From: Flavobacteriales bacterium
GTDB lineage: Bacteria; Bacteroidota; Bacteroidia; Flavobacteriales_F; PHOS-HE28
Length of the DNA stretch: 64,000 nucleotides
Reading direction: 5' to 3'
NCBI GenBank assembly: GCA_016788635.1
Contig: JAEUSU010000004.1
Coordinates: 37,018 to 101,017 of the forward strand
Position numbers and translations under genes: made by a program. Below, one piece after another: positions 1 through 56,752 of this stretch. The notes under the pieces are model-generated. The model made no database searches. It was not told the DNA's origin and was given only the letters and a program-made list of their open reading frames with translations. Within the stretch, counting starts at the first letter, position 1. The number at the start of each line of letters is the position of its first letter.

Positions 1-2
1 CC

Positions 3-44335: not shown

Positions 44336-44827
44336 TCACAAGCACTTGAACTGATCGAATGGCTCCAGGCAATCCTGGCACTTCCATAGCGCCTTGCAGG
44401 CCGTGCTGCCGAAGAGTGATAGCAGCACCGTGTTCGTGGAACCGCACTGCGGACAGGCCACCACCGGTTGCTCGCCTTTGAGCGCACGGATATCAGCGGT
44501 CTTCTCCGGCGGGGCGATGCCGTATTGCTTCAGCTTGCGTTTGCCCTCGTCGGTGATCCAATCGGTGGTCCAGGCAGGGGAGAGGCTCAGCCTCACTTCC
44601 ACCGCGGGCACGCCGGCCTCCAGCAGTTCCTTCTTGATGTCGGCCGCCATCACGTCCATGGCCGGGCAGCCGGTGTAGGTGGGGGTGATGGTGACGATGG
44701 CCTTGCCGCTCTCCTCCACCTCCACGCCGCGCACCACGCCAAGCTCCAGCACGTTGATGGCCGGGATCTCCGGGTCCTTAACGTAGTCGAGGAGCTCGAG
44801 AATGCGGTGTTTGGTGGGGGTGGGCAT
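44336..44827 (-). CDS. paaD: Phenylacetate-CoA oxygenase subunit PaaD
   Basis: DUF59/MIP18-like domain (PEIPAINVLELGVVRGVEV…ITPTYTGCPAMD) plus C-terminal Cys-rich finger (CPQCGS…CQDC). Confidence 0.8.
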   Translation of the reverse strand: MPTPTKHRILELLDYVKDPEIPAINVLELGVVRGVEVEESGKAIVTITPTYTGCPAMDVMAADIKKELLEAGVPAVEVRLSLSPAWTTDWITDEGKRKLKQYGIAPPEKTADIRALKGEQPVVACPQCGSTNTVLLSLFGSTACKALWKCQDCLEPFDQFKCL

Positions 44828-44869
44828 CTCGTGGGGTAAGCGAACATAGAGGCCAATGCGCCAACCAGC

Positions 44870-45238
44870 TTAGTAGTCCTCCATCGTTGATTGAAATTCT
44901 GTGGAGCTCAACACCTCGGTCACGCGATTTCCACCTTCCACATAGTTCTCGCGTGATCGGATCGTATCCCCGTTCGCGAGTATCGCTGTCAGGCCGTAGG
45001 TATTCTCACCCGGACTGAGAAACGAGGTGGATGCCTGTCCGTTCGCTTCAATAGGGCCGAAGGACTCCTTCCCACGTTCGTGCGATAAGATCAAGGTGGA
45101 GATGATTTGGTCATTCCGATTGACCACTTTGATGCAGACGTGCTCCAGGGATCGTGGGCACTCAGCGTATGGAGACGAACAACCGACGAATACGGTGCAA
45201 AGCGCAATTACCGTTAGGAGTCTTGTCAATCGCTCCAT
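44870..45238 (-). CDS. Small hypothetical lipoprotein (122 aa), low-GC insert within the paa operon
   Basis: Lipobox TVFVGCSS; GC content (~50%) clearly lower than flanking paa genes (~65%). Confidence 0.5.
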   Translation of the reverse strand: MERLTRLLTVIALCTVFVGCSSPYAECPRSLEHVCIKVVNRNDQIISTLILSHERGKESFGPIEANGQASTSFLSPGENTYGLTAILANGDTIRSRENYVEGGNRVTEVLSSTEFQSTMEDY

Positions 45239-45256
45239 GGATGGATCCGCGTTGCG

Positions 45257-46039
45257 TTACCATTCCACCCCCGGAAACGCCCGTGTCACATGCTGCATCT
45301 CCGCCAGGATGAAACCCATGTGCTCGCTGTGCAGGCCCTTGCGGCCGCCTGTCATCATGAAGGCATCAGCGGGGCGCTTCAACGTGGCTTCGGAAAGCAC
45401 CTGGTCCATGGTCTTGCTCCAGGCTTCCCTGATGGCGGCGATGTCCGGTGCGATGCCCGCCTTGGTCATCTCCTCCAGAACAGCATCGCTCTCGAAGAGC
45501 TCGCCAGTGTATGTCCACAGGTTGTCGAGGGCGGCTTGGGCACGTTGGTGGCTCTCCTCGGTGCCATCGCCGAAGCGGATCAGCCATTCGCTGCTGTGGC
45601 GCAAGTGGTAGGTGGCCTCCTTCACGCTCTTGCCCGCGATGGCGGCCAGTTGTGCATCGCTGCTCTTGGTCAGGGCCTGCATCAGCGGCAGGTGGTAGGC
45701 ATCGAAGAGGAAGCTGCGCACGATGGTGTGGGCGTAGTCGCCGTTGGGCTGCTCCACTAGTTTCACGTTGGTGAACTGCCGCTCCAAGCGCAGGTAGGCC
45801 AGGTCGTCCTCGGAACGCGGGCCCGCCGTAGCCTTGGCGGAGGCGGGGCCTTTCCCTTCCACCTGCCCGGCATAGGTGAGCAGGTTGCGGGCCTCGCCAA
45901 GGTGGTCCAGCGCGCGGTTGGTGAGGGCGATGTCCTCCTCCAGCACGGGGCCGTGGCCGCACCATTCACCCAGGCGTTGGCTCAGGATGAGGAGGTCGTC
46001 CGCCAACCGCAGTGTGTATGTAAAAAGTGCGTTGCTCAT
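45257..46039 (-). CDS. paaC: Phenylacetate-CoA oxygenase subunit PaaC
   Basis: PaaC/PaaI collinearity (MSNALFTYTLRLADDLLILSQRLGEWCGHGP…). Start at ATG 46039. Confidence 0.85.
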   Translation of the reverse strand: MSNALFTYTLRLADDLLILSQRLGEWCGHGPVLEEDIALTNRALDHLGEARNLLTYAGQVEGKGPASAKATAGPRSEDDLAYLRLERQFTNVKLVEQPNGDYAHTIVRSFLFDAYHLPLMQALTKSSDAQLAAIAGKSVKEATYHLRHSSEWLIRFGDGTEESHQRAQAALDNLWTYTGELFESDAVLEEMTKAGIAPDIAAIREAWSKTMDQVLSEATLKRPADAFMMTGGRKGLHSEHMGFILAEMQHVTRAFPGVEW

Positions 46040-46049
46040 TTCAAGCGCA

Positions 46050-46122
46050 GGTTGGGGGTTGGAGGTTGGTGGGTTGGGGGTTGAGGGCCAACCCTCAACC
46101 ATCGTCAACCTTCAACCATCAA
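46050..46122. repeat. Intergenic heptamer tandem repeat (GGTTGGR x5) immediately followed by its inverted copy (CCAACCY x~4), forming a ~73-bp imperfect palindrome between paaB and paaC
   Basis: Read directly: GTTGGGGGTTGGAGGTTGGTGGGTTGGGGGTTGAGGG-CCAA-CCCTCAACCATCGTCAACCTTCAACCATCAA; central perfect 8-bp stem GTTGAGGG/CCCTCAAC. Confidence 0.7.
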
Positions 46123-46125
46123 TGA

Positions 46126-46419
46126 TCAGATGTATTTCGCCCCCTCAGGCATGGTGTAGAACGTTGGGTGCCTGTAGACCTTGTCATCCGCTGGGTCGTA
46201 GAAGCTCTCCGCGTCCTCGGGGCGGCTGGCGTGGATATGCTCGGCCTTTACCACCCAGATGCTGTTGCCTTCCTGGCGGCGGGTGTACACATCACGGGCG
46301 TTCTCGATGGCCATCTCGGCATCGGCGGCGTGCAGGCTGCCCACGTGCTTGTGGTCGAGCCCGCGCTTGCTCTGGATGAACACTTCCCAGAGGGGCCAGT
46401 TGTTGGGGTTGTCGCTCAT
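46126..46419 (-). CDS. paaB: Phenylacetate-CoA oxygenase subunit PaaB
   Basis: 97 aa; conserved PaaB sequence (WPLWEVFIQSKRGL…HVGSLHAAD…). Confidence 0.9.
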   Translation of the reverse strand: MSDNPNNWPLWEVFIQSKRGLDHKHVGSLHAADAEMAIENARDVYTRRQEGNSIWVVKAEHIHASRPEDAESFYDPADDKVYRHPTFYTMPEGAKYI

Positions 46420-46427
46420 TTTCTATT

Positions 46428-46500
46428 GAGTAACGAGTGGCGAGTGTTGAATGTCGAGTGGTGCTGCCGGGGCAGCTCCGCCACTCGTTACTCGCCACTC
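46428..46500. repeat. Intergenic overlapping inverted repeats (15-bp and 12-bp perfect arms plus an inner GCTGCC..GGCAGC hairpin) between paaA and paaB
   Basis: GAGTAACGAGTGGCG (46428-46442) pairs with CGCCACTCGTTACTC (46480-46494); GAGTGGCGAGTG (46435-46446) pairs with CACTCGCCACTC (46489-46500). The two pairings are mutually exclusive. Confidence 0.7.
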
Positions 46501-46504
46501 CGTA

Positions 46505-47455
46505 TCATGCTGCTTGCTTGCGTTTCGCCTTCTTGGCGGCGTAGGCCACGGCTGCTTCGCGCACCCAGGCGCCATTGTTATGCGCCTTGTTGCGTGCTGC
46601 GAGCCGTTCCTTGTTGCAGGGGCCATTGCCGGCCACCACATTGTTGAACTCGGTCCAGTCGATGGTGCCCCAGTCGTAGTGCTTGGTCTCCGCGTTCCAC
46701 TTCAGGTCGGGATCGGGGATCGTGAGGCCGATCACTTCGGCCTGCTGCACGGTGCGGTCGATGAAGGTCTGGCGCAGTTCATCATTGCTCTGGCGCTTGA
46801 TCTTCCACTTCATGCTCTGTGCGCTGTGCGGGCTGTTGGCGTCTGTGGGGCCGAACATCATCAAGCTGGGCCACCACCAGCGGTTCAGGGCGTCCTGCGC
46901 CATTTCCTTCTGCGCGGGACTTCCCTTTGCCAGCACGGCCATGATCTCGTAACCCTGTCGCTGGTGGAAGCTCTCCTCCTTGCAGATGCGCACCATGGCG
47001 CGGGCGTAAGGGCCATAGCTGGTGCGGCACAGCATCACCTGGTTCATGATGGCGGCACCGTCCACCAACCATCCGATGGCACCGATATCCGCCCAGGTGA
47101 GGGTGGGGTAGTTGAAGATGCTGCTGTACTTGGCCTTGCCGCTCAACAGGTCGTCGATGGTCTGTTCCCGGCTGGTGCCCATGGTCTCCACTGCGCTGTA
47201 GAGGTAGAGTCCGTGCCCGGCCTCATCCTGCACTTTGGCCAGCAGGATGGCCTTTCGTTTCAAGCTGGGCGCACGGGTGATCCAGTTGCCCTCGGGCAGC
47301 ATGCCCACCACTTCGCTGTGCGCGTGCTGGCTGATCTGGCGCACCAAGGTCCTGCGGTAGGCGTCCGGCATCCAGTCCTTCGGCTCGATCTTTAGTTCGG
47401 CGTCGATCTTGGCTTGGAAGAGCTCCTCCAGGTTCTTCACGTCGGTCATGGACAT
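46505..47455 (-). CDS. paaA: Phenylacetate-CoA oxygenase catalytic subunit PaaA
   Basis: Di-iron ferritin-like motifs ([10 protein letters not shown]…, EESFHQRQG) and PaaA length. Confidence 0.92.
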
Positions 47456-47609
47456 GGCGGCTTTTGTCGGTTGGCTAAGGTAGGGTGGACGCGCATTGCA
47501 GGACTGATGCCTGTCATTCCAGGAACAAGCAGGCCATTCGGGTGTTCGCCGTTGGAGCCGGGTACCGAGGCCCTCCTACGGTCGATGGTGCCTATTTTCG
47601 CCACCCCCG

Positions 47610-48707
47610 ATGACGACCCCACGCATGGCCCGCTTCCATACCCTCGAGGTTGCCGATGTCACTCCAGAAACGAAGGATGCGATCTCCGTGGGGCTGAAGG
47701 TCCCACCCGCCCTGCGCGAGGAGTTCAAGTTCATCCACGGCCAGTACCTGACACTGAAGTTGAAGGTGAAAGGGGAGGAGCTGCGCCGCAGCTACAGCAT
47801 CTGCAGCAGCCCATTCGAGCCGGAAGTGATCCGCATTGCGGTGAAGCAGGTGCCCGGCGGCCGGGCCAGCACGTTCCTGGTGGAGCATCTCAAACCGGGA
47901 GACCGGCTGGAGGTGATGACGCCCATGGGGAATTTCTACACCCTATGTGACCCCAGTCACGAACGGCACTATGTGGCTTTCGCGGCTGGCAGCGGCATCA
48001 CGCCCATCCTCAGCATTCTGATGACCGTGCTTCGAAGCGAGCCCAAGAGCCGTTTTACGCTGTTCTATGGCAATACGGACACGGACCGCATCATCTTCCG
48101 CAGCAAGCTGGAGGAGTTAAAGGTGCACTATGGTGGCCGGCTGGATGTGATGCACATCCTGAGCCGGGGGAAGGATGAGGACATGCTCTTTAACGGAAGG
48201 ATCACTGCGGAAAAGGCGGTGGAGCTGGTCAAACGCTTCGTGTCCGACCGGAATGACAATGAGTACTTCATCTGTGGCCCGGAACAGATGATGGTGAACG
48301 TGAGCGAAGCTTTGGAGAACCTTGGGGTGGGGAAGAAGCGGATCCATGTGGAACTCTTCACTTCACCGGTGACCAGCGCCGCCCCCAAAGCGGAACAGAC
48401 CACCTCTGCGAACGGCTTCAGTGGCCTTTCCAACGTGATGGTGATCTTGGACGGCCGTGAGTTCGAAATGCAGGTTCCGGGTAAAGGAGATGCCATCCTG
48501 GATGCGGCCATCGAAGCCGGCCTGGACGTGCCTTTCGCCTGCAAGGGGGCGGTGTGCTGCACCTGCAAGGCCCGCATTACCGAGGGCAAGGTGGAGATGG
48601 CCATGAACTATGCCCTGACCGATGAGGAGGTGGCCGATGGCTACGTGCTCACCTGCCAGGCCCACCCACGCACGGACCGTGTTGTGGTGGATTACGACCA
48701 GCATTAA
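47610..48707 (+). CDS. paaE: Phenylacetate-CoA oxygenase reductase subunit PaaE (FNR-like + 2Fe-2S ferredoxin)
   Basis: FAD/NAD-binding RSYSICS and GSGITP motifs; C-terminal CKGAVCCTC…C 2Fe-2S cluster; divergent from paaA (alternative start ATG 47625). Confidence 0.88.
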   Translation: MTTPRMARFHTLEVADVTPETKDAISVGLKVPPALREEFKFIHGQYLTLKLKVKGEELRRSYSICSSPFEPEVIRIAVKQVPGGRASTFLVEHLKPGDRLEVMTPMGNFYTLCDPSHERHYVAFAAGSGITPILSILMTVLRSEPKSRFTLFYGNTDTDRIIFRSKLEELKVHYGGRLDVMHILSRGKDEDMLFNGRITAEKAVELVKRFVSDRNDNEYFICGPEQMMVNVSEALENLGVGKKRIHVELFTSPVTSAAPKAEQTTSANGFSGLSNVMVILDGREFEMQVPGKGDAILDAAIEAGLDVPFACKGAVCCTCKARITEGKVEMAMNYALTDEEVADGYVLTCQAHPRTDRVVVDYDQH

Positions 48708-48760: not shown

Positions 48761-49273
48761 TCAGGGCCGTGCCTGAACAAGGCTGCCTTGACGGGCGCGG
48801 ATGTGGGTGGCGTAGACCGGGCTGGGCGCGTGCCCGCCGAATTCGGTGCTGTAGCGAATGATGGCGTTGGGGAAATCCTCGAAGAAGGGGTCTCCACCGG
48901 TGAGCGCGTTCTCCGGCTCCAGGTCCACCTGGCAGGGGAAGGCCGGATAACGGCCCACTTCCACAGGTACGTTGGTATCCACCAGGATGAGCTTGCTCTT
49001 GTAACCCGGTTTGCTGATCAGGAGCGCGTATTGGGTGCCCATATCCAGTTCCACTTGGAACCGGCCCTTTTGAATGGCGAAGGACGTGAGCTCGGTATTG
49101 TCCTTGAACACCTTCACCGTGATGTCGGTGGGCTTGGTGCGGCCATTGTCCACTTTCACCCGGCCATCCACGGGCATCACTGGCTTGGCAGGGCCCTTCT
49201 TGCCCTGTGCGCTAACGGTGGCCAGGAGGGCACCGATGAGGCTGAGGAACAGGAATGTGCGACGGAAGTTCAT
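48761..49273 (-). CDS. Secreted hypothetical protein with a carboxypeptidase-regulatory-like (transthyretin-like) beta-sandwich signature
   Basis: Signal peptide MNFRRTFLFLSLIGALLATVSAQ; DGRVKV…VKVF…GRFQVEL…YALLISKPGYKSK pattern. Confidence 0.45.
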   Translation of the reverse strand: MNFRRTFLFLSLIGALLATVSAQGKKGPAKPVMPVDGRVKVDNGRTKPTDITVKVFKDNTELTSFAIQKGRFQVELDMGTQYALLISKPGYKSKLILVDTNVPVEVGRYPAFPCQVDLEPENALTGGDPFFEDFPNAIIRYSTEFGGHAPSPVYATHIRARQGSLVQARP

Positions 49274-49345
49274 GTGCGTAGGCCGGTGACCGGCGGTTTT
49301 GGTTCGGTGCGTTCGTACGGGGATGTGATGACCGGGGTTTCGGTC

Positions 49346-50875
49346 TCAGGAGGCCATGGGCAACTGCGCGGGCTGGCCCACATCGGGCAGCGTCATGGTG
49401 AAGCTGGCCCCACGCCCGGGTGCGCCTTCCGCAATGATGCTTCCCCCGTGTTTGGTGACGATGCGGTGAACGATGGCCAGGCCCACGCCCGTGCCCTCGA
49501 ACTGGTCCGCCCGGTGCAGCCGCTTGAAGACCCCGAAGATGTGACCACCGCGTTCGGCCTCGAAACCCACTCCGTTGTCCGTGACACGAATGACATGGCC
49601 ATCCGGGCTCCTTTCATGTGCGAGCCGGATCTGCGGTCGCTCCACGGTGCGGCTGTACTTCAACGCATTGCTGAGCAGGTTGCTCAACGCCACCTTCAGC
49701 ATGGCTTGATCACCGCTCACCTGTGTGCCAGGCGCGATGTTCAGTTCAACTTGTGCGCGGCGTTCGGCCGGCACCAGTTCCACCACGAGCTCGTTCACCA
49801 GCGTGTTCAGGTCCACCTGCACATGGTTCACCTCCTTGGCGTTGGTCTGGGAGAAGCGCAAGAGGTCGTCCACCAGTTGCAGCATGCGCTGAGAGCCGTT
49901 GTGGATGCGTTGTGCGATGTCCCTGCATTCCTGGATGTCGGTTGCGGTGGAAGCTGCTCCGGCAAGGTGCTCGCTCATGGCGGCGAGTGTCTTCAGCGGC
50001 GAGCGCAGGTCATGCGCCACCGAATAGGAGAAGGAGCCGAGGTCCTCAAGGGCTTCAAGCAGCTGCCTGGTGCGCACTGCCACGCGCCGGTCCAGGTCGG
50101 CGTTCAAGCGCCTCAACTGCAGCTCCTCCTGCTTGCGGTCCGAAATGTCCTTGATGATGGCTTGGTAGAGCCGGCGTCCCTCTCCGTCCACGCCAAGAGG
50201 GTTGGCGGTGAGAAGGCAATCGATGAGGCGGTCGTTGGTGCTTTTCAGTGTCAGGTCCACGTTCACGAAACCGCTTCCGTCGCGTTTGGCGCGTAGGGAG
50301 CGCAACAGCGCGGCGGGGTCCTCAATGCGGGTGCGCATGTCCGTACCGGCCGCCTGACCGGGGGGCAACCCCAGCAGTTTCTCCGCCGCTGCGTTGGCCT
50401 CCACCAGAACACCGCGGTCGGTAACAATGATGATCGGGTCGCCGCTGTTCTCAAATACCTGATGATAGCGCTGCAGCAGCAGCTCGCGCTCGTCGCGCAG
50501 GTTGTACACCTCAAAGGCCTGCTGCACGCGCAGCCGCAGATCGTTCGGATCCCAGGGTTTGGTGGCGTACGCGTAGATGCCGCCCTTGTTCACCGCCTCC
50601 ACCACAGCCTCCAGGTCGGCATAACCGGTAAGGAGCATGCGCATGATGCGCGGGTGGCGCTCGCGCACCTGGGCCAGCAGTTCGGAACCGGTGGTGCCGG
50701 GCATGCGCTGATCGCTGACCAGCACATGGACCGGATGTTGAGCAAGGATGTCGAGCGCTTCCTGGGCGGAAGAGGCCACGTGCACCTCCCATTCGCGGCG
50801 GTAGGTGGCCTTGAAGGCGGTGAGGTTGCCCGCCTCGTCATCGACGTACAGGACCTTGATGCGTTCGGTGCTCAT
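49346..50875 (-). CDS. Hybrid response-regulator receiver + PAS + histidine kinase (HisKA + HATPase_c)
   Basis: REC (VLYVDDE…SDQRMPGTTG…), PAS-like middle, H-box SVAHDLRSPL, N/G boxes (LLSNALKYS, GTGVGLAIV). Start ATG 50875, 5 nt after the stop of the upstream kinase. Confidence 0.85.
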   Translation of the reverse strand: MSTERIKVLYVDDEAGNLTAFKATYRREWEVHVASSAQEALDILAQHPVHVLVSDQRMPGTTGSELLAQVRERHPRIMRMLLTGYADLEAVVEAVNKGGIYAYATKPWDPNDLRLRVQQAFEVYNLRDERELLLQRYHQVFENSGDPIIIVTDRGVLVEANAAAEKLLGLPPGQAAGTDMRTRIEDPAALLRSLRAKRDGSGFVNVDLTLKSTNDRLIDCLLTANPLGVDGEGRRLYQAIIKDISDRKQEELQLRRLNADLDRRVAVRTRQLLEALEDLGSFSYSVAHDLRSPLKTLAAMSEHLAGAASTATDIQECRDIAQRIHNGSQRMLQLVDDLLRFSQTNAKEVNHVQVDLNTLVNELVVELVPAERRAQVELNIAPGTQVSGDQAMLKVALSNLLSNALKYSRTVERPQIRLAHERSPDGHVIRVTDNGVGFEAERGGHIFGVFKRLHRADQFEGTGVGLAIVHRIVTKHGGSIIAEGAPGRGASFTMTLPDVGQPAQLPMAS

Positions 50876-50880
50876 GGTAT

Positions 50881-53028
50881 TCAAGCGCGTTTGCGGGTCA
50901 TTTCAACGGCACGGATGGGCAGGATCAAACGGAACTCCGTGCCTTCGCCGGGCATGCTGTCCACCTCGATGCGGCCTCCGTGCTTTTCCATGATGCTGTA
51001 GGCGATGGAGAGGCCAAGGCCGGTGCCTTCACCCACGTCCTTGGTGGTGAAGAAGGGTTCGAAAATGCGTTGCTTGACATGCTCGGGCATGCCGGGGCCG
51101 TTGTCCTTGATCGCGATCACCGCGTCATCGCCCTGCGTGCAGGTGCGGATCACCACCCTGCCCTCTCCCGGGTTGGAATGGAACCGGGCGGCGACGGCCT
51201 GCACGGCATTGGTGAGCACGTTCATCACCACCTGGTTAAGCTTGCCTGGGTAGCATTCCACTTCGGGAAGGTCCCCGAAATCCAGTTGGATGTCGGCCCT
51301 GTCCCGCAATTGCGAACCCAGCACGGTGAGCGTGCTCCGGATGCCCTCGTGCAGATCGGCGTGCTTCAGGTCATCCTCATCCAAACGGCTGAAGTTGCGC
51401 AGGCCCCGCACGATGGCCGCCGTACGGCTGGCGCCCTCTTCAATGCTGTTCAGCATTTCCTTGATCTCCGCAATGCACACATCCACATCATACTGGCGCT
51501 CCACTTCGGCAATGGCCTTGATCTCCGGGGCGGTCAGCGTGTCCTGCAGGGACCTGTAGCGCAGCATGAGGTCCAGCATGTCCTCCAGGTTCCGGCGCAG
51601 GGGGGGGATGTTGCTGGAGATGAAGTTCACCGGGTTGTTGATCTCGTGGGCGATTCCGGCGGTGAGCTGACCGAGCGAGGCCATCTTCTCGGCGTTGACC
51701 AGTTGCGATTGGGTGCGCTTCAGGTGATCGTTGCTTTCACGCAGTTCAAGTGTGCGCTCGTTCACTTTCTGTTCCAACACCACGTTCTGTTCCCGGATCA
51801 TCTTCTCGTTCAACTGCGAGGCCAGCAGGGCGGCCGCCTGCGATTCCTCCTTCTCCCTGCGAAGGATGTTGATCTTGTCCGCCAGACCGAAGGAGAGCAG
51901 CACCACTTCCACGGCGGAACCCACGGGCATGGTGTATTTGGTGACGTCGTTGAAGGGGAGCAAGCCCCAGTCCTTGAGGACGAACATGGTGATGCCCACC
52001 AGGAACAAGCTCCACGCGATGAGGAAGAAGATGGCCGGACGGAAGCCCTTCCGCATGGTCTGGTACGCGCCCAACAGGATATAGGTGGCGAACGCTGCGG
52101 AGACCACCTGAACGGTCTTGTAGGCCTCAATGGCGAAACCCCCGAACTGAAGTGCCATGCCCAGGGCGAAGAGGACATAGAACAGCATGCGGGTGTTGTC
52201 GAAGCCGGGCAGGTATTGTGACGTTTGGAGAAAACGCCGCATGAACTCGCTGGCCGCGATGGCGGTCATGGCAGTGAACAGCAGCGATGCATGAGGGGCG
52301 AACCACGAGGCGTTCGGCCACAAATGGATGGGTCCGAAGCCGAGGAAGGTGAGCTGGGCCAGACAGACCAGCGCGATGTAAATGACGTACACCAGGTAGC
52401 TGCGATCACGGATCGAGAGGAACACGAAGAGGTTGTACAGCATCATCACCAGCATGATGCCGATGTATCCTCCGGTGAAGAGGTTCCTCATGTGCTGCCC
52501 CTTCACCAAGTGGGCCTTGGTATGCAGGCTCAGCGGAAGCTGCAGTTGTTTGGCACTGCGCACACGCAGGAAGATGCTGGCGCGTCCTCCGGGGGGTATG
52601 GGAATGCCGTAGGAGAGGTCGCCACCGGAGCGTGCCAGCTGATCGGAGGGGCGCTTGAGCCCCGCACTGGCCAGCTTCAGGCGTATGTCCCCGCTGACCA
52701 GGTGGATGTCCAGTTCATCGATCTCGGGGTTGCCCACGAGCAGGTAAAGCATGTCCTCGCGGCTAAGCTGTTCCACATCCAGGCGCACCCAATGCCAATG
52801 GTCGCTAAGGCCCAGGTTGGGCACCCCCTTGGTAACCTGTTCCCAGCCCGGCGCGCGCAGGACATCCTCCAGTTCCATTGCCCCGGTTGGGTCGGTAAGG
52901 ACGGACAGGTGATGACCGAGCGGTCCGCTGTCCGGTTCCCCTCGGTAGGGGTATGCGCTTCCCTGTAGCGCGCTCGCCTGGGCAAGTGCAAGAAGAATGA
53001 ATGAGGCGGTGACGCGCCAGCGCAACAT
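50881..53028 (-). CDS. 7TMR-DISM sensor histidine kinase (periplasmic 7TMR-DISMED2 + 7TM + HisKA + HATPase_c)
   Basis: Signal peptide; extracytoplasmic domain; seven hydrophobic segments (GGYIGIMLVMMLYNLFVF…); H-box AGIAHEINNPVNF; G-box GEGTGLGLSIAYSI. Confidence 0.85.
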   Translation of the reverse strand: MLRWRVTASFILLALAQASALQGSAYPYRGEPDSGPLGHHLSVLTDPTGAMELEDVLRAPGWEQVTKGVPNLGLSDHWHWVRLDVEQLSREDMLYLLVGNPEIDELDIHLVSGDIRLKLASAGLKRPSDQLARSGGDLSYGIPIPPGGRASIFLRVRSAKQLQLPLSLHTKAHLVKGQHMRNLFTGGYIGIMLVMMLYNLFVFLSIRDRSYLVYVIYIALVCLAQLTFLGFGPIHLWPNASWFAPHASLLFTAMTAIAASEFMRRFLQTSQYLPGFDNTRMLFYVLFALGMALQFGGFAIEAYKTVQVVSAAFATYILLGAYQTMRKGFRPAIFFLIAWSLFLVGITMFVLKDWGLLPFNDVTKYTMPVGSAVEVVLLSFGLADKINILRREKEESQAAALLASQLNEKMIREQNVVLEQKVNERTLELRESNDHLKRTQSQLVNAEKMASLGQLTAGIAHEINNPVNFISSNIPPLRRNLEDMLDLMLRYRSLQDTLTAPEIKAIAEVERQYDVDVCIAEIKEMLNSIEEGASRTAAIVRGLRNFSRLDEDDLKHADLHEGIRSTLTVLGSQLRDRADIQLDFGDLPEVECYPGKLNQVVMNVLTNAVQAVAARFHSNPGEGRVVIRTCTQGDDAVIAIKDNGPGMPEHVKQRIFEPFFTTKDVGEGTGLGLSIAYSIMEKHGGRIEVDSMPGEGTEFRLILPIRAVEMTRKRA

Positions 53029-53071
53029 GCCGGCCTTCTACGACCGGCCCACGGGCATGGTTATGGCCTGC

Positions 53072-53830
53072 TCAGGCGCTGAAAAGCTGGTACTGTTCCT
53101 CCACCGGCCGGTAGTCCTCCAGGTCGATCAGGCTGCCGTGGAATTTCATCCGGTAGGTCACCTCCAGGTTGTGCTTGCCAGGCCGCTCCAAGCGTGTCTG
53201 GTCGGGCCTTAGGCGCAGGCTGTATACGAGGTGCCGCTGGTCCTGTGAAGCGTGTTCAAGCATCAGTGTGTCCGGATTCACCATGGCCACTGCGGTGATC
53301 GAGGGAATGGGATAGATGAAGGTCCCTTTCTCGCCCACGGCATCCAGCACCACGAACCCGTTGCGACTGGGGTGTCGTTGGGTATACGTGGCCACCAGGC
53401 ACACCATTCGCTGCGCACCTACCATGACAGATAGCGCCGTGACCGCCTGGCTCAGCAGGACCGGGACGCCGTGCATGGCGTACCGATTCGCGTTCCACAG
53501 GCCGCAAACCTCGCCATTCCCATAGGGCTCGAGCACCTTGAGGTGGTCGTGGATGCTGGGGTCGAGCTTGCGCAGGGCCAGTTCCATGGGAAGGCCCCTT
53601 CCGGGCCTTGCCATCTCTAATCGGATGCCGCCCACCATGCCCAAGGTCTCGTGCAGCGCAACGATCACATAGGTCCCGGGGTCGCGCGTCCATTCATCGT
53701 TGTTGGTGGTCACATTGGATATACCGTAATCCTCGAGCACTTTACGGTGTTCACGAAGGAACTCGCGGCACAATTCAGGTTCGCGTGGGGCTTGGAACGC
53801 CCTGAGGGTGATCCGGTCGGGTCGTTCCAT
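53072..53830 (-). CDS. Uncharacterised 252-aa protein, translationally coupled to the upstream E1-SagB fusion gene; weak resemblance to GNAT-fold / autoinducer-synthase-like N-acyltransferases
   Basis: No signal peptide. Spacing of conserved blocks (…YVIVALHETLGMVGGIRL…, …GEVCGLWNANRYAMHG…) is loosely like the LuxI/FeeM fold; this is an inference only. Its start lies 4 nt after the stop of the 776-aa gene. Confidence 0.45.
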   Translation of the reverse strand: MERPDRITLRAFQAPREPELCREFLREHRKVLEDYGISNVTTNNDEWTRDPGTYVIVALHETLGMVGGIRLEMARPGRGLPMELALRKLDPSIHDHLKVLEPYGNGEVCGLWNANRYAMHGVPVLLSQAVTALSVMVGAQRMVCLVATYTQRHPSRNGFVVLDAVGEKGTFIYPIPSITAVAMVNPDTLMLEHASQDQRHLVYSLRLRPDQTRLERPGKHNLEVTYRMKFHGSLIDLEDYRPVEEQYQLFSA

Positions 53831-53833
53831 GGG

Positions 53834-56164
53834 TCAGGCGTGAAGGGGTTGGGGCTTGTACACCATATCCTGAAGGGGACGGCGCAGGGCACGGGCGCTG
53901 GGAGGCCCAGCCTGGCTGAGCCGCATCATGAACAAGGGCCTGCCGGGCCGGGTGGAGAGCAGGTGGTCAAAGCGGACCTTCAGGCGCTCCATTTCGAGCA
54001 TGAGCTGCGGCTCCAGATCAGCCACCCAGGGAATGGCATGGAATAGAAAGATCGGTGCGCTGATGGGGTGAACAGCCCAGCCCAGGCGGTTGGCTTCCAT
54101 CCATGCGCGTTGGGCGGCGCGCCCCCCCTGAAGCCGCTGGGCAAGGGAGTCTCCAGCGCCGCAGACCAGCATGACCGCCGCACTGTTCACGATGCCGGAA
54201 TGTGCGAATCGTTCCAAGCCGCGTCCTGCGTCCCAATCGCGCAGCAGGGCCATGGCACGCGCGTCAGACCCCATGCGCAGGGCGGCCGCTGCGGTGGGGG
54301 ATACCTCCATGGTGGCCAGGTCCAGGCCATCCGCGGTACGCGCGGCTTCCTCCGGGGTCCAGCGCACCTCGGCGGCAAAAAACTCGTGATGTCCCACCGG
54401 GTCCAGTACGCGCACACGCTCGGCCCCACCACAGATACCCGCCAACTCGTTCAGGTCGGCTTGGGAAGTAAACATGTGAAGGTGGCAATCCGGCACGGCC
54501 TGCACTGCGCGGTGCAATGCCTCGACCATGTCGGCGGGTAGCGGCGTGCGCGTGGCGACCTTGCGGTTGGTGCAGCGTTGTGTGATCCAGTCTGCCAGCG
54601 GATCAACAGCCGGTGGTTGGCCGGTGGCAGAAGGGACCAGCAGGGCCGTAAGCGCAGGACGGTCGGGCAGGGGATGGTGAACGATGTCCAACGCTACCCC
54701 CATCGCACCCGCTCTCAGGCGCATGTTCTCCAATGCGGTGCCCAAGGCGATCTGCGCGATCAGGTGGTCCGGGTCCCAACGGGAAGCCGAACGGGCCGCA
54801 TCATGGAAGAGCAGCAGCAAGCCCTCGTGCAGCATGAAACGCCAGGGCTGCATGTTGCCTGCGGAAGGGGCCAGCGCGCCGGCTTCGAAAATGCGCATGG
54901 CCTGGGCCGTGTCCAAGTGCGGGTAAGCTTTATGGTGCGCGGTGGCCTCTTGCGCACAGCGTTCCATGAACTCGGTCGTGAGCGGAGGAACGGATCGGTG
55001 TTCTACGGATTTGACCGCCACTTGCTCTTCGCCGAAGTGGTCGTTCAGGTCCACATACCAGCGGCCTGAGGTGCGGAATTGATCCAGGGCGATCCTCCGG
55101 CACACCTCGGCCACCAAGGCGCCGCCCAACATGACCGCACTCCCCAACTGAGGCCATGTGCTTACCGATCGTCCCAATTCAAGCACCGATGCTTTGAGTC
55201 GCGGGCTCAGTGTGTCCGTGCCTACGATGGGCACCATGTAAGGCACCTTTTCCTCACTGGTCATTTTCCGGCCCGCAGCGGCCAGGTCCAGGTGGTCTAT
55301 CCAGCCGTGCAGGATGGGGCGTCCCGGCTCCAGGTCGAAACGCTCCACGTCCACGCACCCGCGATCGCTCATGTCCATCACCACGGGGATGCGCATGGCC
55401 TTGGCCTTCTGCCGCGCGAGGATCTTGATGTCCACACTGTCGCACTCCTCCACCAGCAGGTCAAGCGGACCACCTTCCTCAAAGAACTGGTCCAGGTTGT
55501 GCTGGGTGATGCCTTCCGTGAAGCAGGTCACCTGCAAGTAGGGGTCCAATTCAGCGATCTGCCGCGCACAACTGATGGCTTTGTTCAAACCCAGCTCATG
55601 CACCCCGCCCGCAAGCCGGTTCAGGTTGCTGAGGTCAAGTCCATCGAAGTCAGCAAGGCGCAATTCGGCGAAGCCGCGTTCCAAGGCCAGGGTGATGGCC
55701 GCAGACCGCCCTACCGACAGCCCAATGATGCCGATCCGTAGTTGCCCCAGGCGTTCCTGCTCGGCGCGCGTGATCTTGTTCCTGTTGCGGTCGGTGCGCA
55801 CCCTGGCGAATTCCTCTTCATCGAGGAGATGCACCAACACATTGCGCCAGGGATAATGCACCCATGTGCCGTAGTCCTCCATGGGAACGCCGGCCAGATG
55901 CCGCTGCACCTCCTGGTCCAATTCGGCGGCGGAGAACGTGCGGTCGGGCCGCAGGGAGCGGATCAATTCCTTCAACTGATCATCCAGCGTATCCAGCTGG
56001 GTGATCCCGCGTGCCCTGAGCACGTGCAACGCCTCGCGGTCCGCTTCCAAGCGCGGGCGAAGGATCAGGGGGCGGTGGCCGGTGGTGTTGTTGGGTGGCG
56101 GGTGGAGCGGTCCGCCGGTGGGTCGGGTCATTGTGGGTGCCCCGAATATCATGCAGTTGAGCAA
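53834..56164 (-). CDS. Fusion protein: N-terminal E1-like/ThiF-type adenylyltransferase-fold domain + C-terminal SagB/McbC-type (nitroreductase superfamily, FMN) dehydrogenase domain (Rv1355c-like architecture)
   Basis: ThiF-like region with IGIIGLSVGRS (degenerate Gly-rich loop) and the E1 hallmark LRLADFDGLDLSNLNR; C-terminal nitroreductase-like blocks (SAGNMQPWRF…, …AGICGGAERVRV…). 776 aa; exact start uncertain. Confidence 0.75.
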   Translation of the reverse strand: MLNCMIFGAPTMTRPTGGPLHPPPNNTTGHRPLILRPRLEADREALHVLRARGITQLDTLDDQLKELIRSLRPDRTFSAAELDQEVQRHLAGVPMEDYGTWVHYPWRNVLVHLLDEEEFARVRTDRNRNKITRAEQERLGQLRIGIIGLSVGRSAAITLALERGFAELRLADFDGLDLSNLNRLAGGVHELGLNKAISCARQIAELDPYLQVTCFTEGITQHNLDQFFEEGGPLDLLVEECDSVDIKILARQKAKAMRIPVVMDMSDRGCVDVERFDLEPGRPILHGWIDHLDLAAAGRKMTSEEKVPYMVPIVGTDTLSPRLKASVLELGRSVSTWPQLGSAVMLGGALVAEVCRRIALDQFRTSGRWYVDLNDHFGEEQVAVKSVEHRSVPPLTTEFMERCAQEATAHHKAYPHLDTAQAMRIFEAGALAPSAGNMQPWRFMLHEGLLLLFHDAARSASRWDPDHLIAQIALGTALENMRLRAGAMGVALDIVHHPLPDRPALTALLVPSATGQPPAVDPLADWITQRCTNRKVATRTPLPADMVEALHRAVQAVPDCHLHMFTSQADLNELAGICGGAERVRVLDPVGHHEFFAAEVRWTPEEAARTADGLDLATMEVSPTAAAALRMGSDARAMALLRDWDAGRGLERFAHSGIVNSAAVMLVCGAGDSLAQRLQGGRAAQRAWMEANRLGWAVHPISAPIFLFHAIPWVADLEPQLMLEMERLKVRFDHLLSTRPGRPLFMMRLSQAGPPSARALRRPLQDMVYKPQPLHA

Positions 56165-56266
56165 TACCGGTCAAGTTCCCTGCGCGGTCTTTTGTTAACA
56201 GTCGGCGGCACGAAACCCCAACCATTCGTCCGCGTATGAGGCCGGTAACGCCGCTTTGGCGAACCC

Positions 56267-56752
56267 ATGCACACCATGCTCAGCGCCCCCCGCAACCTGT
56301 TGCCTTGCGTGCTTTTCGTGGACGACGAGCCCACGAACCGCATGACCTTTCGCGCAGCATTCCGACGCCAGTTCCGTGTGTTGCTAGCCGGCACACCCGA
56401 AGAGGCGTTCGATCATTTGAACTCCAGCGAGGTGGATGTGGTGATCAGCGACCAGCGCATGCCCGGCACGGTCGGCAGCGAGTTCCTGGCCCAGGTGAGG
56501 CAGCGCTTCCCCAAGGTGCGCCGCATGTTGGTCACCGCCTACAGTGACCTCCAGGCCTTGGTGGATGCGGTGAACAGGGCCGGTGTCTCACAATACATCC
56601 AGAAGCCCTGGGACGCGGGCCAGCTGGCAGAGGCTGTTCGCCAGGCGCACCAGGACCGTGTTCGCGAAGTGGAGCAGGATGCCCAGGTGACCTACCTGGC
56701 CGAGTTGAACCAGCAGCTTGAGTTCGCCTTGCGGCAGCGCCTGCTTTCCTGA
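56267..56752 (+). CDS. Stand-alone response-regulator receiver (CheY-like) protein
   Basis: VLFVDDE…DVVISDQRMPGTVGSEFL…YIQKPW; paralogous to the REC domain of the hybrid kinase at 49346-50875. Confidence 0.8.
   Translation: MHTMLSAPRNLLPCVLFVDDEPTNRMTFRAAFRRQFRVLLAGTPEEAFDHLNSSEVDVVISDQRMPGTVGSEFLAQVRQRFPKVRRMLVTAYSDLQALVDAVNRAGVSQYIQKPWDAGQLAEAVRQAHQDRVREVEQDAQVTYLAELNQQLEFALRQRLLS

What the first reader, a model, noticed from the sequence alone, without database searches (positions are those of the whole stretch)
49346..56752. The E1-SagB module sits in a dedicated signalling locus: 7TMR-DISM sensor kinase and REC-PAS-kinase hybrid follow in the same orientation, and a divergent orphan REC paralog lies upstream
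Four minus-strand genes run with 4-, 43- and 5-nt gaps: the fusion, the 252-aa protein, the 7TMR-DISM histidine kinase and the REC-PAS-HK hybrid. A stand-alone receiver is transcribed divergently about 100 bp upstream. Its sequence (SDQRMPGTVGSEFL…YIQKPW) is clearly paralogous to the hybrid's REC domain (SDQRMPGTTGSELL…YATKPW). Placing a putative modification enzyme pair under, or upstream of, an envelope-sensing phosphorelay suggests either a regulated secondary-metabolite or signal-production locus or a signalling output that is itself enzymatic.
Basis: partly seen in the sequence, partly recalled or inferred. Interest (0 to 1): 0.6.

Follow-up and report, generated by a model that had tools for sequence, protein, structure and literature searches.

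The report
Oxazolone-lipid operon wired to sensor kinases
Two genes that most likely make a small fatty-acyl amino-acid ring compound (an oxazolone, whose biological role is an open question) sit in one operon with a membrane sensor kinase relay, and this pairing holds across many Bacteroidota, which suggests a self-made signal encoded next to its receptor.

Summary
The layout is real: four tightly packed minus-strand genes and a divergent receiver gene. The "E1-SagB" label needs correcting. [quoted passage not shown] The 252-aa protein is its N-acyl amino acid synthase partner: it has a FeeM/AHL-synthase fold and is profile-homologous to the actinobacterial TrzA-like family.

In 80 species-level Bacteroidota genomes, every locus with enough flanking DNA has the synthase pair followed by a 7TMR-DISM histidine kinase. 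A REC-histidine kinase hybrid follows in 59 of 61. A solo receiver is nearly always present. This holds in Pedobacter, Mucilaginibacter, Pelobium and Chitinophagaceae, where the outer flanking genes differ and gene order is sometimes permuted. It also holds in variants whose ThiF lacks the oxidase domain.

The best model is that a self-made N-acyl amino-acid-derived molecule is sensed by the co-transcribed 7TM kinase. This is inferred, not shown. The enzymes are known. The conserved kinase coupling did not appear in the literature I could search, and cultured Pedobacter and Thermoflavifilum strains would let the unresolved role of oxazolones be tested.

The parts
53834..56164 (-). Oxazolone synthetase (TrzS/OxzB-type; NCBIfam 'Rv1355c family'). 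It has an N-terminal conserved extension, a ThiF/E1-like ATP-dependent cyclase (about residues 125-290) and a C-terminal Acg-type tandem nitroreductase-fold flavin-dependent oxidase (about residues 416-705). The likely true start is the ATG at 56131.
   Evidence: NF005901 scores 751 bits against a cut-off of 476, covering residues 26-767. Pfam ThiF 2.5e-18 and Nitroreductase 1.9e-08. 37% identity end to end with the Nocardia farcinica homologue, E 7e-105. Best solved structures: Acg 2YMV for residues 416-703, UBA5/TcdA for the ThiF part. ATP-site residues (G145, G148, D172, D174, N180, N182, R183, K195, D242) are invariant in 14 homologues.
53072..53830 (-). N-acyl amino acid synthase partner (TrzA/OxzA/TyzA-like; GNAT superfamily, FeeM/AHL-synthase fold). 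It has no Pfam or NCBIfam hit of its own.
   Evidence: AlphaFold model with pLDDT 90.7. Top Foldseek PDB hits are FeeM 2g0b (E 8.6e-08, TM 0.72-0.77), then the AHL synthases BjaI, EsaI and LasI. Profile-profile match to the actinobacterial TrzA-like family: 98.4%, E 1e-14, 195 columns. 12 of 47 distant family members hit GNAT PF00583.
50881..53028 (-). 7TMR-DISM sensor histidine kinase: signal peptide, periplasmic DISMED2 domain, seven TM helices, conserved signalling helix, DHp with H461, and the ATPase domain.
   Evidence: Pfam 7TMR-DISM_7TM 6.4e-47, DISMED2 1.9e-21, HisKA, HATPase_c. H461 is invariant in 65/65 orthologues. Present after the synthase pair in 72/72 loci with enough flank.
49346..50884 (-). 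Cytoplasmic REC-PAS-HisKA-HATPase hybrid kinase (likely ATG start at 50875). In Sphingobacteriales and Chitinophagales the orthologue is a ~365-aa REC-kinase without PAS.
   Evidence: Pfam. D58, K109 and H291 are invariant in 59/59. Present in 59/61 loci with at least 5 kb downstream.
56267..56752 (+). Divergently transcribed single-domain response regulator (REC plus a ~35-aa C-terminal helical tail). It is a paralogue of the hybrid's REC and has no DNA-binding output domain.
   Evidence: Pfam Response_reg 3.9e-22. 52% identity to the hybrid's REC. D62 conserved in 80/83 solo RECs. REC tree.
56143..56174 (-). Promoter-like element for the four-gene operon: TTGACC-N18-GATATTCG, resembling a Bacteroidota -33/-7 promoter.
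   Evidence: Sigma-70 scan hit. A matching TTG-N17-23-[TG]AnnTT[TC]G element lies on the operon strand in 33 of 68 REC-fusion intergenic regions, against 1 on the other strand and a shuffle mean of 1.3, maximum 5.
48761..49273 (-). 170-aa protein with a hydrophobic, signal-peptide-like N-terminus (read by eye), co-directional, 72 nt downstream of the hybrid kinase. It is a clade-specific accessory or a neighbour, not part of the conserved core.
   Evidence: Found after the hybrid kinase in most of the Flavobacteriales-labelled loci. Absent from the Pedobacter, Chitinophagaceae and Mucilaginibacter loci. Only a weak CarboxypepD_reg hit.

Best explanation
The locus is one operon that couples synthesis of a small molecule to a sensor-kinase relay.

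Step 1 (by homology): the 252-aa GNAT/FeeM-fold enzyme N-acylates an amino acid using an acyl-CoA or acyl-ACP. All characterised relatives use Trp, Tyr or Phe.

Step 2 (by homology): the 776-aa fusion adenylates the carboxylate and cyclises it to a 5(4H)-oxazolone in its ThiF domain. Its flavin oxidase domain then desaturates it with O2. This is the chemistry shown for TrzS and OxzB.

Step 3 (inferred from conserved co-transcription): the product, or its hydrolysed N-acyl dehydro-amino acid, is the ligand of the co-encoded 7TMR-DISM kinase. The kinase autophosphorylates on H461 and passes phosphate to the closely related receiver domains of the module: D58 of the REC-PAS-kinase hybrid and D62 of the solo REC. 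The hybrid adds a second, cytoplasmic PAS-gated input.

Step 4 (unknown): the output. The core has no DNA-binding regulator. In some lineages a sigma-54 activator or rpoN lies next to the module.

The circuit would work like the synthase-plus-membrane-kinase pairs cqsA/cqsS, luxM/luxN, rpfF/rpfC or agrBDCA, i.e. an autoinducer or autocrine loop.
For: Enzyme identities. The chemistry is taken from PMC12856293, PMC10404671 and bioRxiv 10.1101/2020.06.11.147165.

Operon evidence: spacers of 3 nt, 43 nt and a 4-nt overlap or 5-nt gap; no terminator-like site on the minus strand between the genes; a conserved promoter-like element found only upstream of the first gene; the same tight spacing in gene calls of relatives.

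Functional linkage, from 80 species-level genomes. The N-acyltransferase is adjacent in 76/76 loci with flank. The 7TMR-DISM kinase follows in 72/72. The REC-kinase follows in 59/61. A solo REC is present in all but one locus.
- The linkage survives loss of the Flavobacteriales flanking genes (M1 peptidase, PaaE) in Pedobacter, Mucilaginibacter, Pelobium, Chitinophagaceae, Vicingaceae and Bacteroidia loci.
- It survives gene-order permutation (L068, L084, L086).
- It survives replacement of the fusion by a ThiF-only gene in Thermoflavifilum L093 and metagenome locus L095.

All phospho-acceptor residues are conserved.

The 7TM segment of the kinase is better conserved than the periplasmic DISMED2 domain: 40-46% against 24-30% identity, and 31/204 against 7/133 conserved columns. 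L095 keeps the 7TM kinase with no DISMED2 hit on record.

Independent parallel: in Actinomycetota the same enzyme pair abuts c-di-GMP signalling genes. In Nocardia L090 the order is trzA-like, trzS-like, then an overlapping GAF-GGDEF-EAL gene. Two Rhodococcus plasmids have a GGDEF gene one gene away. The authors of PMC12856293 raise a signalling role for Mtb on the same grounds.
Against: No experiment links any oxazolone to any receptor. De Rond et al. saw no phenotype when bacteria were exposed to oxazolones (bioRxiv 10.1101/2020.06.11.147165). In PMC12856293, tryptazolones were mostly cell-associated, while the acyl-tryptophan intermediates accumulated in the supernatant.

From my own knowledge, the stimuli reported for 7TMR-DISM proteins are not lipids: Ca2+ for LadS and glutamate for NicD.

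The output of the relay is unknown. The sample is the 80 best of 383 relatives plus a few metagenome loci, so Bacteroidota copies without kinases could exist unseen. Better conservation of the TM region may only reflect structural constraint.
Confidence: 0.45

Rival explanations
1. A regulated metabolite, not a ligand. The 7TMR-DISM kinase senses an external or envelope cue (cation, glycan, damage) through its periplasmic DISMED2 domain. The relay then controls when the cell makes or uses the oxazolone, which acts as a stress lipid, antimicrobial or membrane component.
For: Oxazolone production in Proteobacteria is induced by sub-inhibitory antibiotics (bioRxiv 10.1101/2020.06.11.147165). N-acyl tyrosine relatives are reported to have antimicrobial activity (cited in PMC12856293). 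From my own knowledge, DISMED2 domains elsewhere are linked to extracellular cues. Two-component genes inside biosynthetic clusters are common. The conserved linkage fits this reading as well as it fits the ligand model.
Against: The conserved core has no DNA-binding response regulator to control transcription. The kinases lie downstream of the enzymes in the same transcript, so they are made together with the pathway they would control. DISMED2 is the least conserved part of the kinase and has no hit in L095.
Confidence: 0.3
2. Membrane homeostasis. The N-acyl amino-acid-derived product is a structural membrane or envelope lipid, and the 7TM kinase monitors bilayer composition in a feedback loop.
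For: Bacteroidota are rich in amino-acid lipids (PMC12479983 introduction; PMC11631085 by title). C12-tyrazolones are thought able to sit in membranes (PMC12856293). The TM region of the kinase is conserved.
Against: Characterised products are minor metabolites and are labile in water, with a half-life of hours at pH 8 (bioRxiv 10.1101/2020.06.11.147165). The pathway is predicted to be non-essential in Mtb (PMC12856293). I saw no lipid-export or flippase gene in the conserved core.
Confidence: 0.12
3. One reading: an E1-like/SagB-like pair that modifies a peptide or protein (TOMM- or RiPP-like, or ubiquitin-like conjugation), controlled by the kinases.
For: ThiF/E1 and nitroreductase-fold domains also occur in microcin and TOMM pathways (PMC12596934 review). 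Pfam alone reports only 'ThiF' and 'Nitroreductase'.
Against: The whole protein passes the curated equivalog cut-off of the Rv1355c family, whose members TrzS and OxzB act on free N-acyl amino acids (PMC12856293). No SagB-type model matched at E<=0.01. [quoted passage not shown] No YcaO, precursor peptide or ubiquitin-like gene is conserved in the module.
Confidence: 0.03
4. Chance or inherited neighbourhood: the kinases and the enzymes are functionally unrelated genes that happen to share an operon.
For: Within the Flavobacteriales-labelled loci the outer flanks (M1 peptidase, PaaE-PaaABCD) are conserved too, so synteny inside that group is not informative on its own.
Against: The core stays together where the flanks are replaced, where gene order is permuted and where the enzyme architecture changes, across at least four orders.
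Confidence: 0.05

Closest known systems
TrzAS of Mycobacterium tuberculosis, M. smegmatis and Rhodococcus jostii (Rv1356c/Rv1355c; N-acyl tryptazolone pathway, Kleetz et al. 2025, PMC12856293)
   Same: The two-gene chemistry module is the same: a FeeM-fold N-acyltransferase plus a ThiF-cyclase/flavin-oxidase fusion. The fusion passes the NCBIfam Rv1355c-family cut-off and aligns end to end with an actinobacterial homologue at 37% identity. The partner is profile-homologous to the gene upstream of that homologue. Both sit next to signalling genes.
   Different: Gene order is reversed here (synthetase first, then acyltransferase). The acyltransferase is too diverged for single-sequence or Pfam detection. 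The adjacent signalling genes are a 7TMR-DISM kinase, a REC-kinase hybrid and a solo REC, not GGDEF/EAL c-di-GMP enzymes. The amino-acid and acyl specificity are unknown.
OxzAB of Pseudoalteromonas rubra (tyrazolone/phenazolone synthetase, de Rond et al.; bioRxiv 10.1101/2020.06.11.147165)
   Same: An N-acyltransferase plus a di-domain ThiF-nitroreductase enzyme making N-acyl oxazolones. The biological role is unknown, and the authors suggest a signal.
   Different: OxzB falls in a different similarity subcluster from Rv1355c (FDO-A8 against A4, PMC10404671). That survey covered 56 proteobacterial proteins and does not mention kinase neighbours or Bacteroidota.
Synthase-plus-membrane-kinase quorum-sensing pairs: CqsA/CqsS, LuxM/LuxN, RpfF/RpfC(-RpfG), AgrBDCA (from my own knowledge)
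   Same: A signal-synthesis gene lies adjacent to, or is co-transcribed with, a polytopic membrane histidine kinase that senses a hydrophobic self-made molecule, with a phosphorelay downstream. The acyltransferase here shares the fold of AHL synthases.
   Different: The relationship is one of logic only. The enzymes, the 7TMR-DISM sensor and the receivers are unrelated to those systems. Ligand binding and density dependence are untested here.
7TMR-DISM receptors (RetS and LadS of Pseudomonas aeruginosa, NicD; Anantharaman & Aravind 2003; from my own knowledge)
   Same: DISMED2 plus 7TM sensor architecture feeding a histidine kinase.
   Different: As far as I know, those proteins are not encoded next to a small-molecule synthase. 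Their reported stimuli (Ca2+, glutamate, possibly glycans) are not self-made lipids. This kinase has no receiver or Hpt domain of its own.

Membership tests
Rv1355c / TrzS / OxzB-type oxazolone synthetase | Full-length match to the curated family model above its cut-off | tested here: met
   NCBIfam NF005901 (equivalog): 751.2 bits against a cut-off of 476. Residues 26-767 match model positions 7-717 of 722.
Rv1355c / TrzS / OxzB-type oxazolone synthetase | ThiF/E1 adenylation domain with an intact ATP site, including the Asp whose loss (D217A in TrzS of M. smegmatis) abolishes cyclisation | tested here: met
   Pfam ThiF 2.5e-18. The Gly-rich loop, DxD, NxNR, K195 and D242 ('ECDSVD') are invariant in 14 homologues, and the motif is conserved in the Nocardia homologue ('EECDSLD'). 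Equating D242 with D217 is inferred from motif position, because I did not have the M. smegmatis sequence.
Rv1355c / TrzS / OxzB-type oxazolone synthetase | C-terminal Acg-like flavin-dependent oxidase with FMN-site residues (R540 and Q651 in TrzS of M. smegmatis) | tested here: inconclusive
   The domain is present: NF047509 Acg family 2.1e-38, and Acg 2YMV is the best solved match for residues 416-703. The motifs 'APSAGNMQPW' and 'RCTNRK' are invariant. The specific residues could not be mapped without the reference sequence.
Rv1355c / TrzS / OxzB-type oxazolone synthetase | Adjacent N-acyltransferase gene in the same operon | tested here: met
   A 3-nt spacer in the window. Adjacent in 76/76 related loci with flank.
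Rv1355c / TrzS / OxzB-type oxazolone synthetase | ATP-dependent cyclisation and O2-dependent desaturation of an N-acyl amino acid | not testable with these tools
   Needs enzyme assays or heterologous expression with LC-MS.
TrzA / OxzA / TyzA N-acyl amino acid synthase (FeeM-like GNAT) | FeeM/AHL-synthase-type GNAT fold | tested here: met
   Model pLDDT 90.7. FeeM 2g0b is the top hit, followed by BjaI, EsaI and LasI. PMC10404671 reports the same two leading structural neighbours for TyzA.
TrzA / OxzA / TyzA N-acyl amino acid synthase (FeeM-like GNAT) | Sequence homology to a bona fide TrzA-type protein | tested here: met
   Profile-profile only: 98.4%, E 1e-14, 195 columns against the family seeded by the Nocardia gene directly upstream of its Rv1355c-family gene. 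A narrower profile against that single Nocardia sequence gave nothing significant, and Pfam and NCBIfam gave nothing. That the Nocardia gene is a TrzA orthologue is inferred from its position and from the description in PMC12856293.
TrzA / OxzA / TyzA N-acyl amino acid synthase (FeeM-like GNAT) | Conserved active-site acid and motif positions | tested here: inconclusive
   E107 is invariant in 47 family members and aligns with invariant E131 of the TrzA-like family. G68/R70 and Y173-P174 also align with invariant positions. A catalytic role is inferred, not shown.
   No SagB-type family among the 20 NCBIfam or 3 Pfam hits at E<=0.01. The hits are the Rv1355c and Acg/Rv3131 families and generic Nitroreductase.
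   The conserved neighbours are the acyltransferase, two kinases and receivers. Clustering of ORFs of at least 100 aa found no other conserved family. Short precursor-size ORFs were not examined.
7TMR-DISM sensor histidine kinase | DISMED2 extracellular domain, 7TMR-DISM_7TM, and a catalytically competent HisKA/HATPase core | tested here: met
   Pfam 1.9e-21, 6.4e-47, 1.7e-07 and 1.6e-27. H461 and the HEINNP box are invariant in 65/65.
Autoinducer synthase / receptor-kinase circuit (functional class, not a sequence family) | Synthase and membrane kinase co-transcribed and co-inherited | tested here: met
   Spacing, the lack of terminators, the promoter-like element and synteny. Transcripts themselves were not observed.
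Autoinducer synthase / receptor-kinase circuit (functional class, not a sequence family) | The product is released, binds the kinase and changes its activity, with density-dependent feedback | not testable with these tools
   Needs metabolite analysis, kinase reconstitution and reporter assays.

The most novel reading that the evidence does not exclude
N-acyl oxazolones, or their N-acyl (dehydro)amino acid forms, are self-made signalling molecules of Bacteroidota, and the co-transcribed 7TMR-DISM histidine kinase is their receptor. This would give oxazolones a physiological role, name the first receptor for them, give the 7TMR-DISM class a lipid-like ligand, and define a native quorum-sensing-like system in a phylum where I know of none that is well established. 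The GAF-GGDEF-EAL proteins next to trzAS in Actinomycetota would then be the equivalent sensors there.
Probability: 0.3. Interest if true: 0.85.

Novelty: new variant of a known kind. Interest (0 to 1): 0.62.

Why it matters
Oxazolone natural products were discovered in 2020-2021, and two pathways were then found in M. tuberculosis. The authors of the 2025 study call their physiological role "a major unresolved question". Their only genomic hint of signalling is that the Mtb genes lie near c-di-GMP genes (PMC12856293).

This locus shows that in another phylum the same chemistry is almost always encoded in one operon with a membrane sensor kinase, a second kinase and receiver proteins. This holds even in variants where the oxidase domain is missing. 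That names a concrete candidate receptor. It also provides cultured hosts in which synthase and kinase knock-outs, metabolite add-back and phosphotransfer assays can test the signalling hypothesis directly: several Pedobacter strains and Thermoflavifilum thermophilum. If the hypothesis holds, it would define a new class of bacterial signal and receptor. If it fails, the module is still a widespread metabolite pathway in Bacteroidota that I did not find described.

Tried and rejected
1. Comparing the narrow 252-aa profile (A1) with single neighbouring genes of plasmid-borne Rv1355c-family genes (Rhodococcus L088, Mycolicibacterium L087, Streptomyces L089) gave nothing. The same profile against the single Nocardia TrzA-like sequence was also insignificant (2.8%). 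Homology appeared only after I built profiles on both sides.

2. Plasmid contexts were mostly orphan copies and said little about the acyltransferase. They did show GGDEF neighbours in two Rhodococcus plasmids.

3. The strict Bacteroidota -7 motif TAnnTTTG has no copy between 49 and 57 kb. A sigma-54 -24/-12 search found nothing in the intergenic regions and fewer window hits than chance. A relaxed -33/-7 pattern was needed to see the conserved element.

4. The sigma-70 and terminator scan is at background level overall. It is used only as negative evidence for internal terminators.

5. Fusion proteins containing the acyltransferase domain:
- The NAS-7TMR-DISM 'fusion' P0290 sits on a 3.8-kb read-assembly contig and may be a frameshift artefact, so it is not used as evidence.
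- The LRR-NAS protein P0331 lies in an unrelated context.
- The context of the TIR-NAS protein P0354 was not looked up.

6. The REC tree resolves solo and hybrid clades only within the Flavobacteriales-labelled loci. Deeper branching is unresolved, so no claim is made about when the duplication happened.

7. Literature searches for oxazolone plus histidine kinase plus ThiF, and for N-acyl amino acids plus quorum sensing plus Bacteroidetes, found nothing relevant. The library excludes many subscription papers, so this is weak evidence of novelty.

Full report
**1. What is in the sequence**

Between 49.3 and 56.8 kb the window carries four co-directional minus-strand ORFs:
- a 776-aa ORF at 53834-56164
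- a 252-aa ORF at 53072-53830
- a 715-aa ORF at 50881-53028
- a 512-aa ORF at 49346-50884

A 161-aa ORF lies on the plus strand at 56267-56752. The spacers between the minus-strand genes are 3 nt, 43 nt, and a 4-nt overlap (or a 5-nt gap if the hybrid starts at the ATG at 50875). The divergent gene starts 102-135 bp from the first gene.

Pfam gives ThiF + Nitroreductase for the 776-aa protein and nothing for the 252-aa protein. The third protein has 7TMR-DISMED2 + 7TMR-DISM_7TM + HisKA + HATPase_c. The fourth has Response_reg + PAS + HisKA + HATPase_c. The divergent gene has Response_reg alone. The two receiver domains share 52% identity over 113 ungapped residues (E 2e-39). No terminator-like site lies on the minus strand between the genes.

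**2. What the enzymes are**

The "E1-SagB" label does not hold. NCBIfam places the whole 776-aa protein in the equivalog family NF005901, "Rv1355c family protein", with 751 bits against a cut-off of 476. Its C-terminal half matches the Acg/Rv3131 FMN-oxidoreductase family. No SagB-type model appears. NCBI already annotates the identical MAG protein as an Rv1355c family protein, from a Flavobacteriales bacterium.

Rv1355c has been characterised as TrzS. [quoted passage not shown] Its partner TrzA (Rv1356c) makes the N-acyl amino acid (PMC12856293). The related systems are OxzAB of Pseudoalteromonas rubra (bioRxiv 10.1101/2020.06.11.147165) and TyzACB of M. tuberculosis (PMC10404671).

The window protein aligns end to end with the Nocardia farcinica homologue at 37% identity (E 7e-105). 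Its best solved-structure matches are Acg 2YMV for residues 416-703, and UBA5 and the oxazolone-forming tRNA dehydratase TcdA for the ThiF part. The ATP-site residues, including D242 in "ECDSVD", are invariant in 14 homologues.

**3. The 252-aa protein**

It has no Pfam or NCBIfam hit, and a word-indexed search found relatives only in uncultured Flavobacteriales and Bacteroidetes MAGs. An exhaustive profile search found 573 cluster representatives.

An AlphaFold model built on 40 homologues is confident (pLDDT 90.7). [quoted passage not shown] These are the same leading neighbours that PMC10404671 reports for TyzA.

To test homology, I took the unannotated 249-aa gene directly upstream of the Nocardia Rv1355c-family gene and collected its family. 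I then compared profiles and obtained 98.4% probability, E 1e-14, over 195 columns. Invariant E107, G68/R70 and Y173-P174 align with invariant positions of the actinobacterial family. Twelve of 47 distant members also hit the GNAT model PF00583. UniRef names the Thermoflavifilum member an "N-acyl-L-homoserine lactone synthetase". The pair is therefore an OxzAB/TrzAS-type N-acyl oxazolone pathway with the gene order reversed.

**4. Is the kinase linkage real?**

Three relatives from the same clade show the same order, but they also share the outer flanks: an M1 peptidase on one side and PaaE-PaaABCD on the other. That alone proves little.

I therefore scanned one genome per species. The scan found 383 relatives and kept the best 80, at 40-56% identity. 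I labelled every ORF in the 80 loci by searching with the window proteins. The results:
- The acyltransferase is adjacent to the fusion in 76 of 76 loci that have flanking DNA.
- The 7TMR-DISM kinase follows in 72 of 72.
- A REC-kinase hybrid follows in 59 of 61 loci with at least 5 kb downstream. The two exceptions are one fragmented assembly and one REC-only gene.
- A solo REC is present in all but one locus with adequate flank.

The core persists in six Pedobacter genomes and in Mucilaginibacter, Pelobium, Chitinophagaceae, Vicingaceae, Cytophagaceae and Bacteroidia loci, where the M1, PaaE and 170-aa flanking genes are absent. It also persists where the order is permuted: in L068, L084 and L086 the acyltransferase comes first, and in L084 and L086 the solo REC lies downstream on the other strand. 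In these lineages the hybrid is a ~365-aa REC-kinase without PAS. Up to three solo RECs occur, two upstream and one downstream.

Loci reached through distant acyltransferase representatives add architectural variants:
- Thermoflavifilum thermophilum has acyltransferase, a ThiF-only protein (no oxidase), the 7TMR-DISM kinase and a REC-kinase, with 4-nt overlaps.
- A metagenome locus has REC, ThiF-only, acyltransferase and a 7TM kinase with no DISMED2 hit and no second kinase.
- Another has the full set plus a sigma-54 activator directly downstream.

Across all variants the constant set is acyltransferase + ThiF + 7TM kinase, and a receiver domain (solo or within the REC-kinase) accompanies it in every variant.

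**5. Operon and signalling competence**

Gene calls in relatives show the same overlaps and short gaps. A relaxed Bacteroidota-type promoter pattern (TTG-N17-23-[TG]AnnTT[TC]G) lies on the operon strand in 33 of 68 REC-fusion intergenic regions. It occurs once on the other strand, and shuffled controls give a mean of 1.3 and a maximum of 5. The window copy at 56174-56143 overlaps the first two candidate start codons, so it favours the ATG at 56131.

The phospho-acceptor residues are conserved: kinase H461 in 65/65, hybrid D58, K109 and H291 in 59/59, and solo REC D62 in 80/83. The module's receivers are close relatives of one another (34-68% identity within a locus) and show lineage-specific duplications. 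In the kinase, the 7TM bundle and the following signalling helix are better conserved than the periplasmic DISMED2 domain.

**6. How it most likely works**

Steps shown by homology: acylation of an amino acid, then adenylation, cyclisation and desaturation to an oxazolone.

Steps inferred from the conserved co-transcription: the product or a derivative is sensed by the 7TM kinase, which phosphorylates the module's receivers. The PAS-containing hybrid integrates a cytoplasmic cue.

The output is unknown, because the core has no DNA-binding regulator. Sigma-54 components lie next to the module in some lineages. This is the logic of cqsA/cqsS, luxM/luxN, rpfF/rpfC and agr (my own knowledge).

An independent parallel exists in Actinomycetota. 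In Nocardia the pair is followed by an overlapping GAF-GGDEF-EAL gene, as described for Mtb (PMC12856293). Two Rhodococcus plasmids carry a GGDEF gene one gene away.

The main rival is that the relay senses something else and merely controls the pathway. I cannot exclude this. The lack of a transcriptional regulator in the core, the position of the kinases downstream of the enzymes and the weak conservation of DISMED2 argue mildly against it.

**7. Comparison with what is known, and novelty**

The enzymes are new, diverged members of a known kind. The conserved fusion of that pathway with a 7TMR-DISM phosphorelay, and its presence in Bacteroidota, did not appear in any paper I could search. 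PMC12479983 lists only Pseudomonadota, Actinomycetota and Planctomycetota as producers of N-acyl tyrosines, the class that includes the related N-acyl dehydrotyrosines. The library lacks many subscription papers, so novelty is provisional. I classify the locus as a new variant of a known kind.

**8. Limits**

All functional statements rest on homology and gene context. The genome sample is the best 80 of 383 hits plus five further loci reached through distant acyltransferase representatives. Most carriers are MAGs, and two contigs labelled Burkholderiales and Agrobacterium (L073, L076) have the same gene order as the Bacteroidia loci and may be mis-binned. Substrate identity, release of the product, ligand binding and the relay's output all need experiments.

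Noticed in passing
window 44336-48707: A phenylacetyl-CoA oxygenase cluster (PaaA, PaaB, PaaC and PaaD on the minus strand; a PaaE-like reductase at 47610-48707 on the plus strand) lies next to the module. It stays next to it throughout the Flavobacteriales-labelled loci but not in other orders. An aromatic acyl-CoA pathway beside an N-acyl aromatic amino-acid pathway may be coincidence or a supply link.
   Followed up: partly
window 48761-49273 (-): A 170-aa protein with a hydrophobic, signal-peptide-like N-terminus (read by eye) and no family assignment (weak CarboxypepD_reg hit). It lies 72 nt downstream of the hybrid kinase and is conserved there in most Flavobacteriales-labelled loci only. 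A GC-rich hairpin (49282-49294) sits in the gap.
   Followed up: partly
L090 4066-8838 (Nocardia farcinica); L088 and L092 (Rhodococcus plasmids): In Nocardia the order is trzA-like, trzS-like, then a GAF-GGDEF-EAL gene whose start overlaps the trzS-like stop by 20 nt. Two Rhodococcus plasmids have a GGDEF gene one gene away from an Rv1355c-family gene. So the oxazolone genes also sit beside c-di-GMP signalling genes in these Actinomycetota loci.
   Followed up: partly
L093 8001-13147 (Thermoflavifilum thermophilum); L095 6378-10752: Module variants in which the ThiF cyclase has no flavin-oxidase domain and no separate oxidase gene is adjacent, yet the 7TM kinase is retained. L095 also has no DISMED2 hit and no second kinase. 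These would stop at a saturated, chemically reactive azlactone or use the adenylate differently.
   Followed up: partly
L067 3977-8832 and 16213-16638 (Pedobacter yulinensis); L096 13386-15221: Sigma-54 components next to the module. In Pedobacter there is rpoN plus an NtrC-type regulator-kinase pair upstream. In L096 a sigma-54 activator without a recognised receiver lies directly downstream of an extra solo REC. This is a possible output route for a relay that otherwise has no DNA-binding protein.
   Followed up: partly
P0354 (570 aa), P0331 (662 aa, locus L097), P0290 (577 aa, locus L094): The acyltransferase domain also occurs fused to a TIR domain, to leucine-rich repeats (in an unrelated gene context) and apparently to a 7TMR-DISM sensor. 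The last is on a short read-assembly contig and may be a frameshift artefact.
   Followed up: partly
window 56143-56174 and the REC-fusion intergenic regions of L007-L086: A conserved AT-rich block (consensus ...TTTGTT[A/G/C]ATAAC...N...CTACATTCG) lies about 50-60 nt upstream of the fusion gene in the Flavobacteriales-labelled loci. I read it as a -33/-7 promoter. The GTTA-N-TAAC core is also palindromic and could be a regulator binding site.
   Followed up: partly
L096 9246-9965: An unannotated 239-aa gene with no Pfam hit is inserted between the acyltransferase and the 7TMR-DISM kinase in one lineage. L064, L072 and L073 also have 2-6 kb inserted between the two kinases.
   Followed up: no
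window 1-2198: The first 2 kb have an unusual base composition (AT skew 0.35, GC skew 0.14). They encode the C-terminal 731 aa of a protein with only a TPR hit near its start.
   Followed up: no
L073, L076: Contigs deposited as 'uncultured Burkholderiales' and 'Agrobacterium sp.' MAGs carry the same module order as the Bacteroidia loci L064 and L072 (L076 is cut within the kinase). They are probably binning errors and not transfer to Proteobacteria.
   Followed up: no
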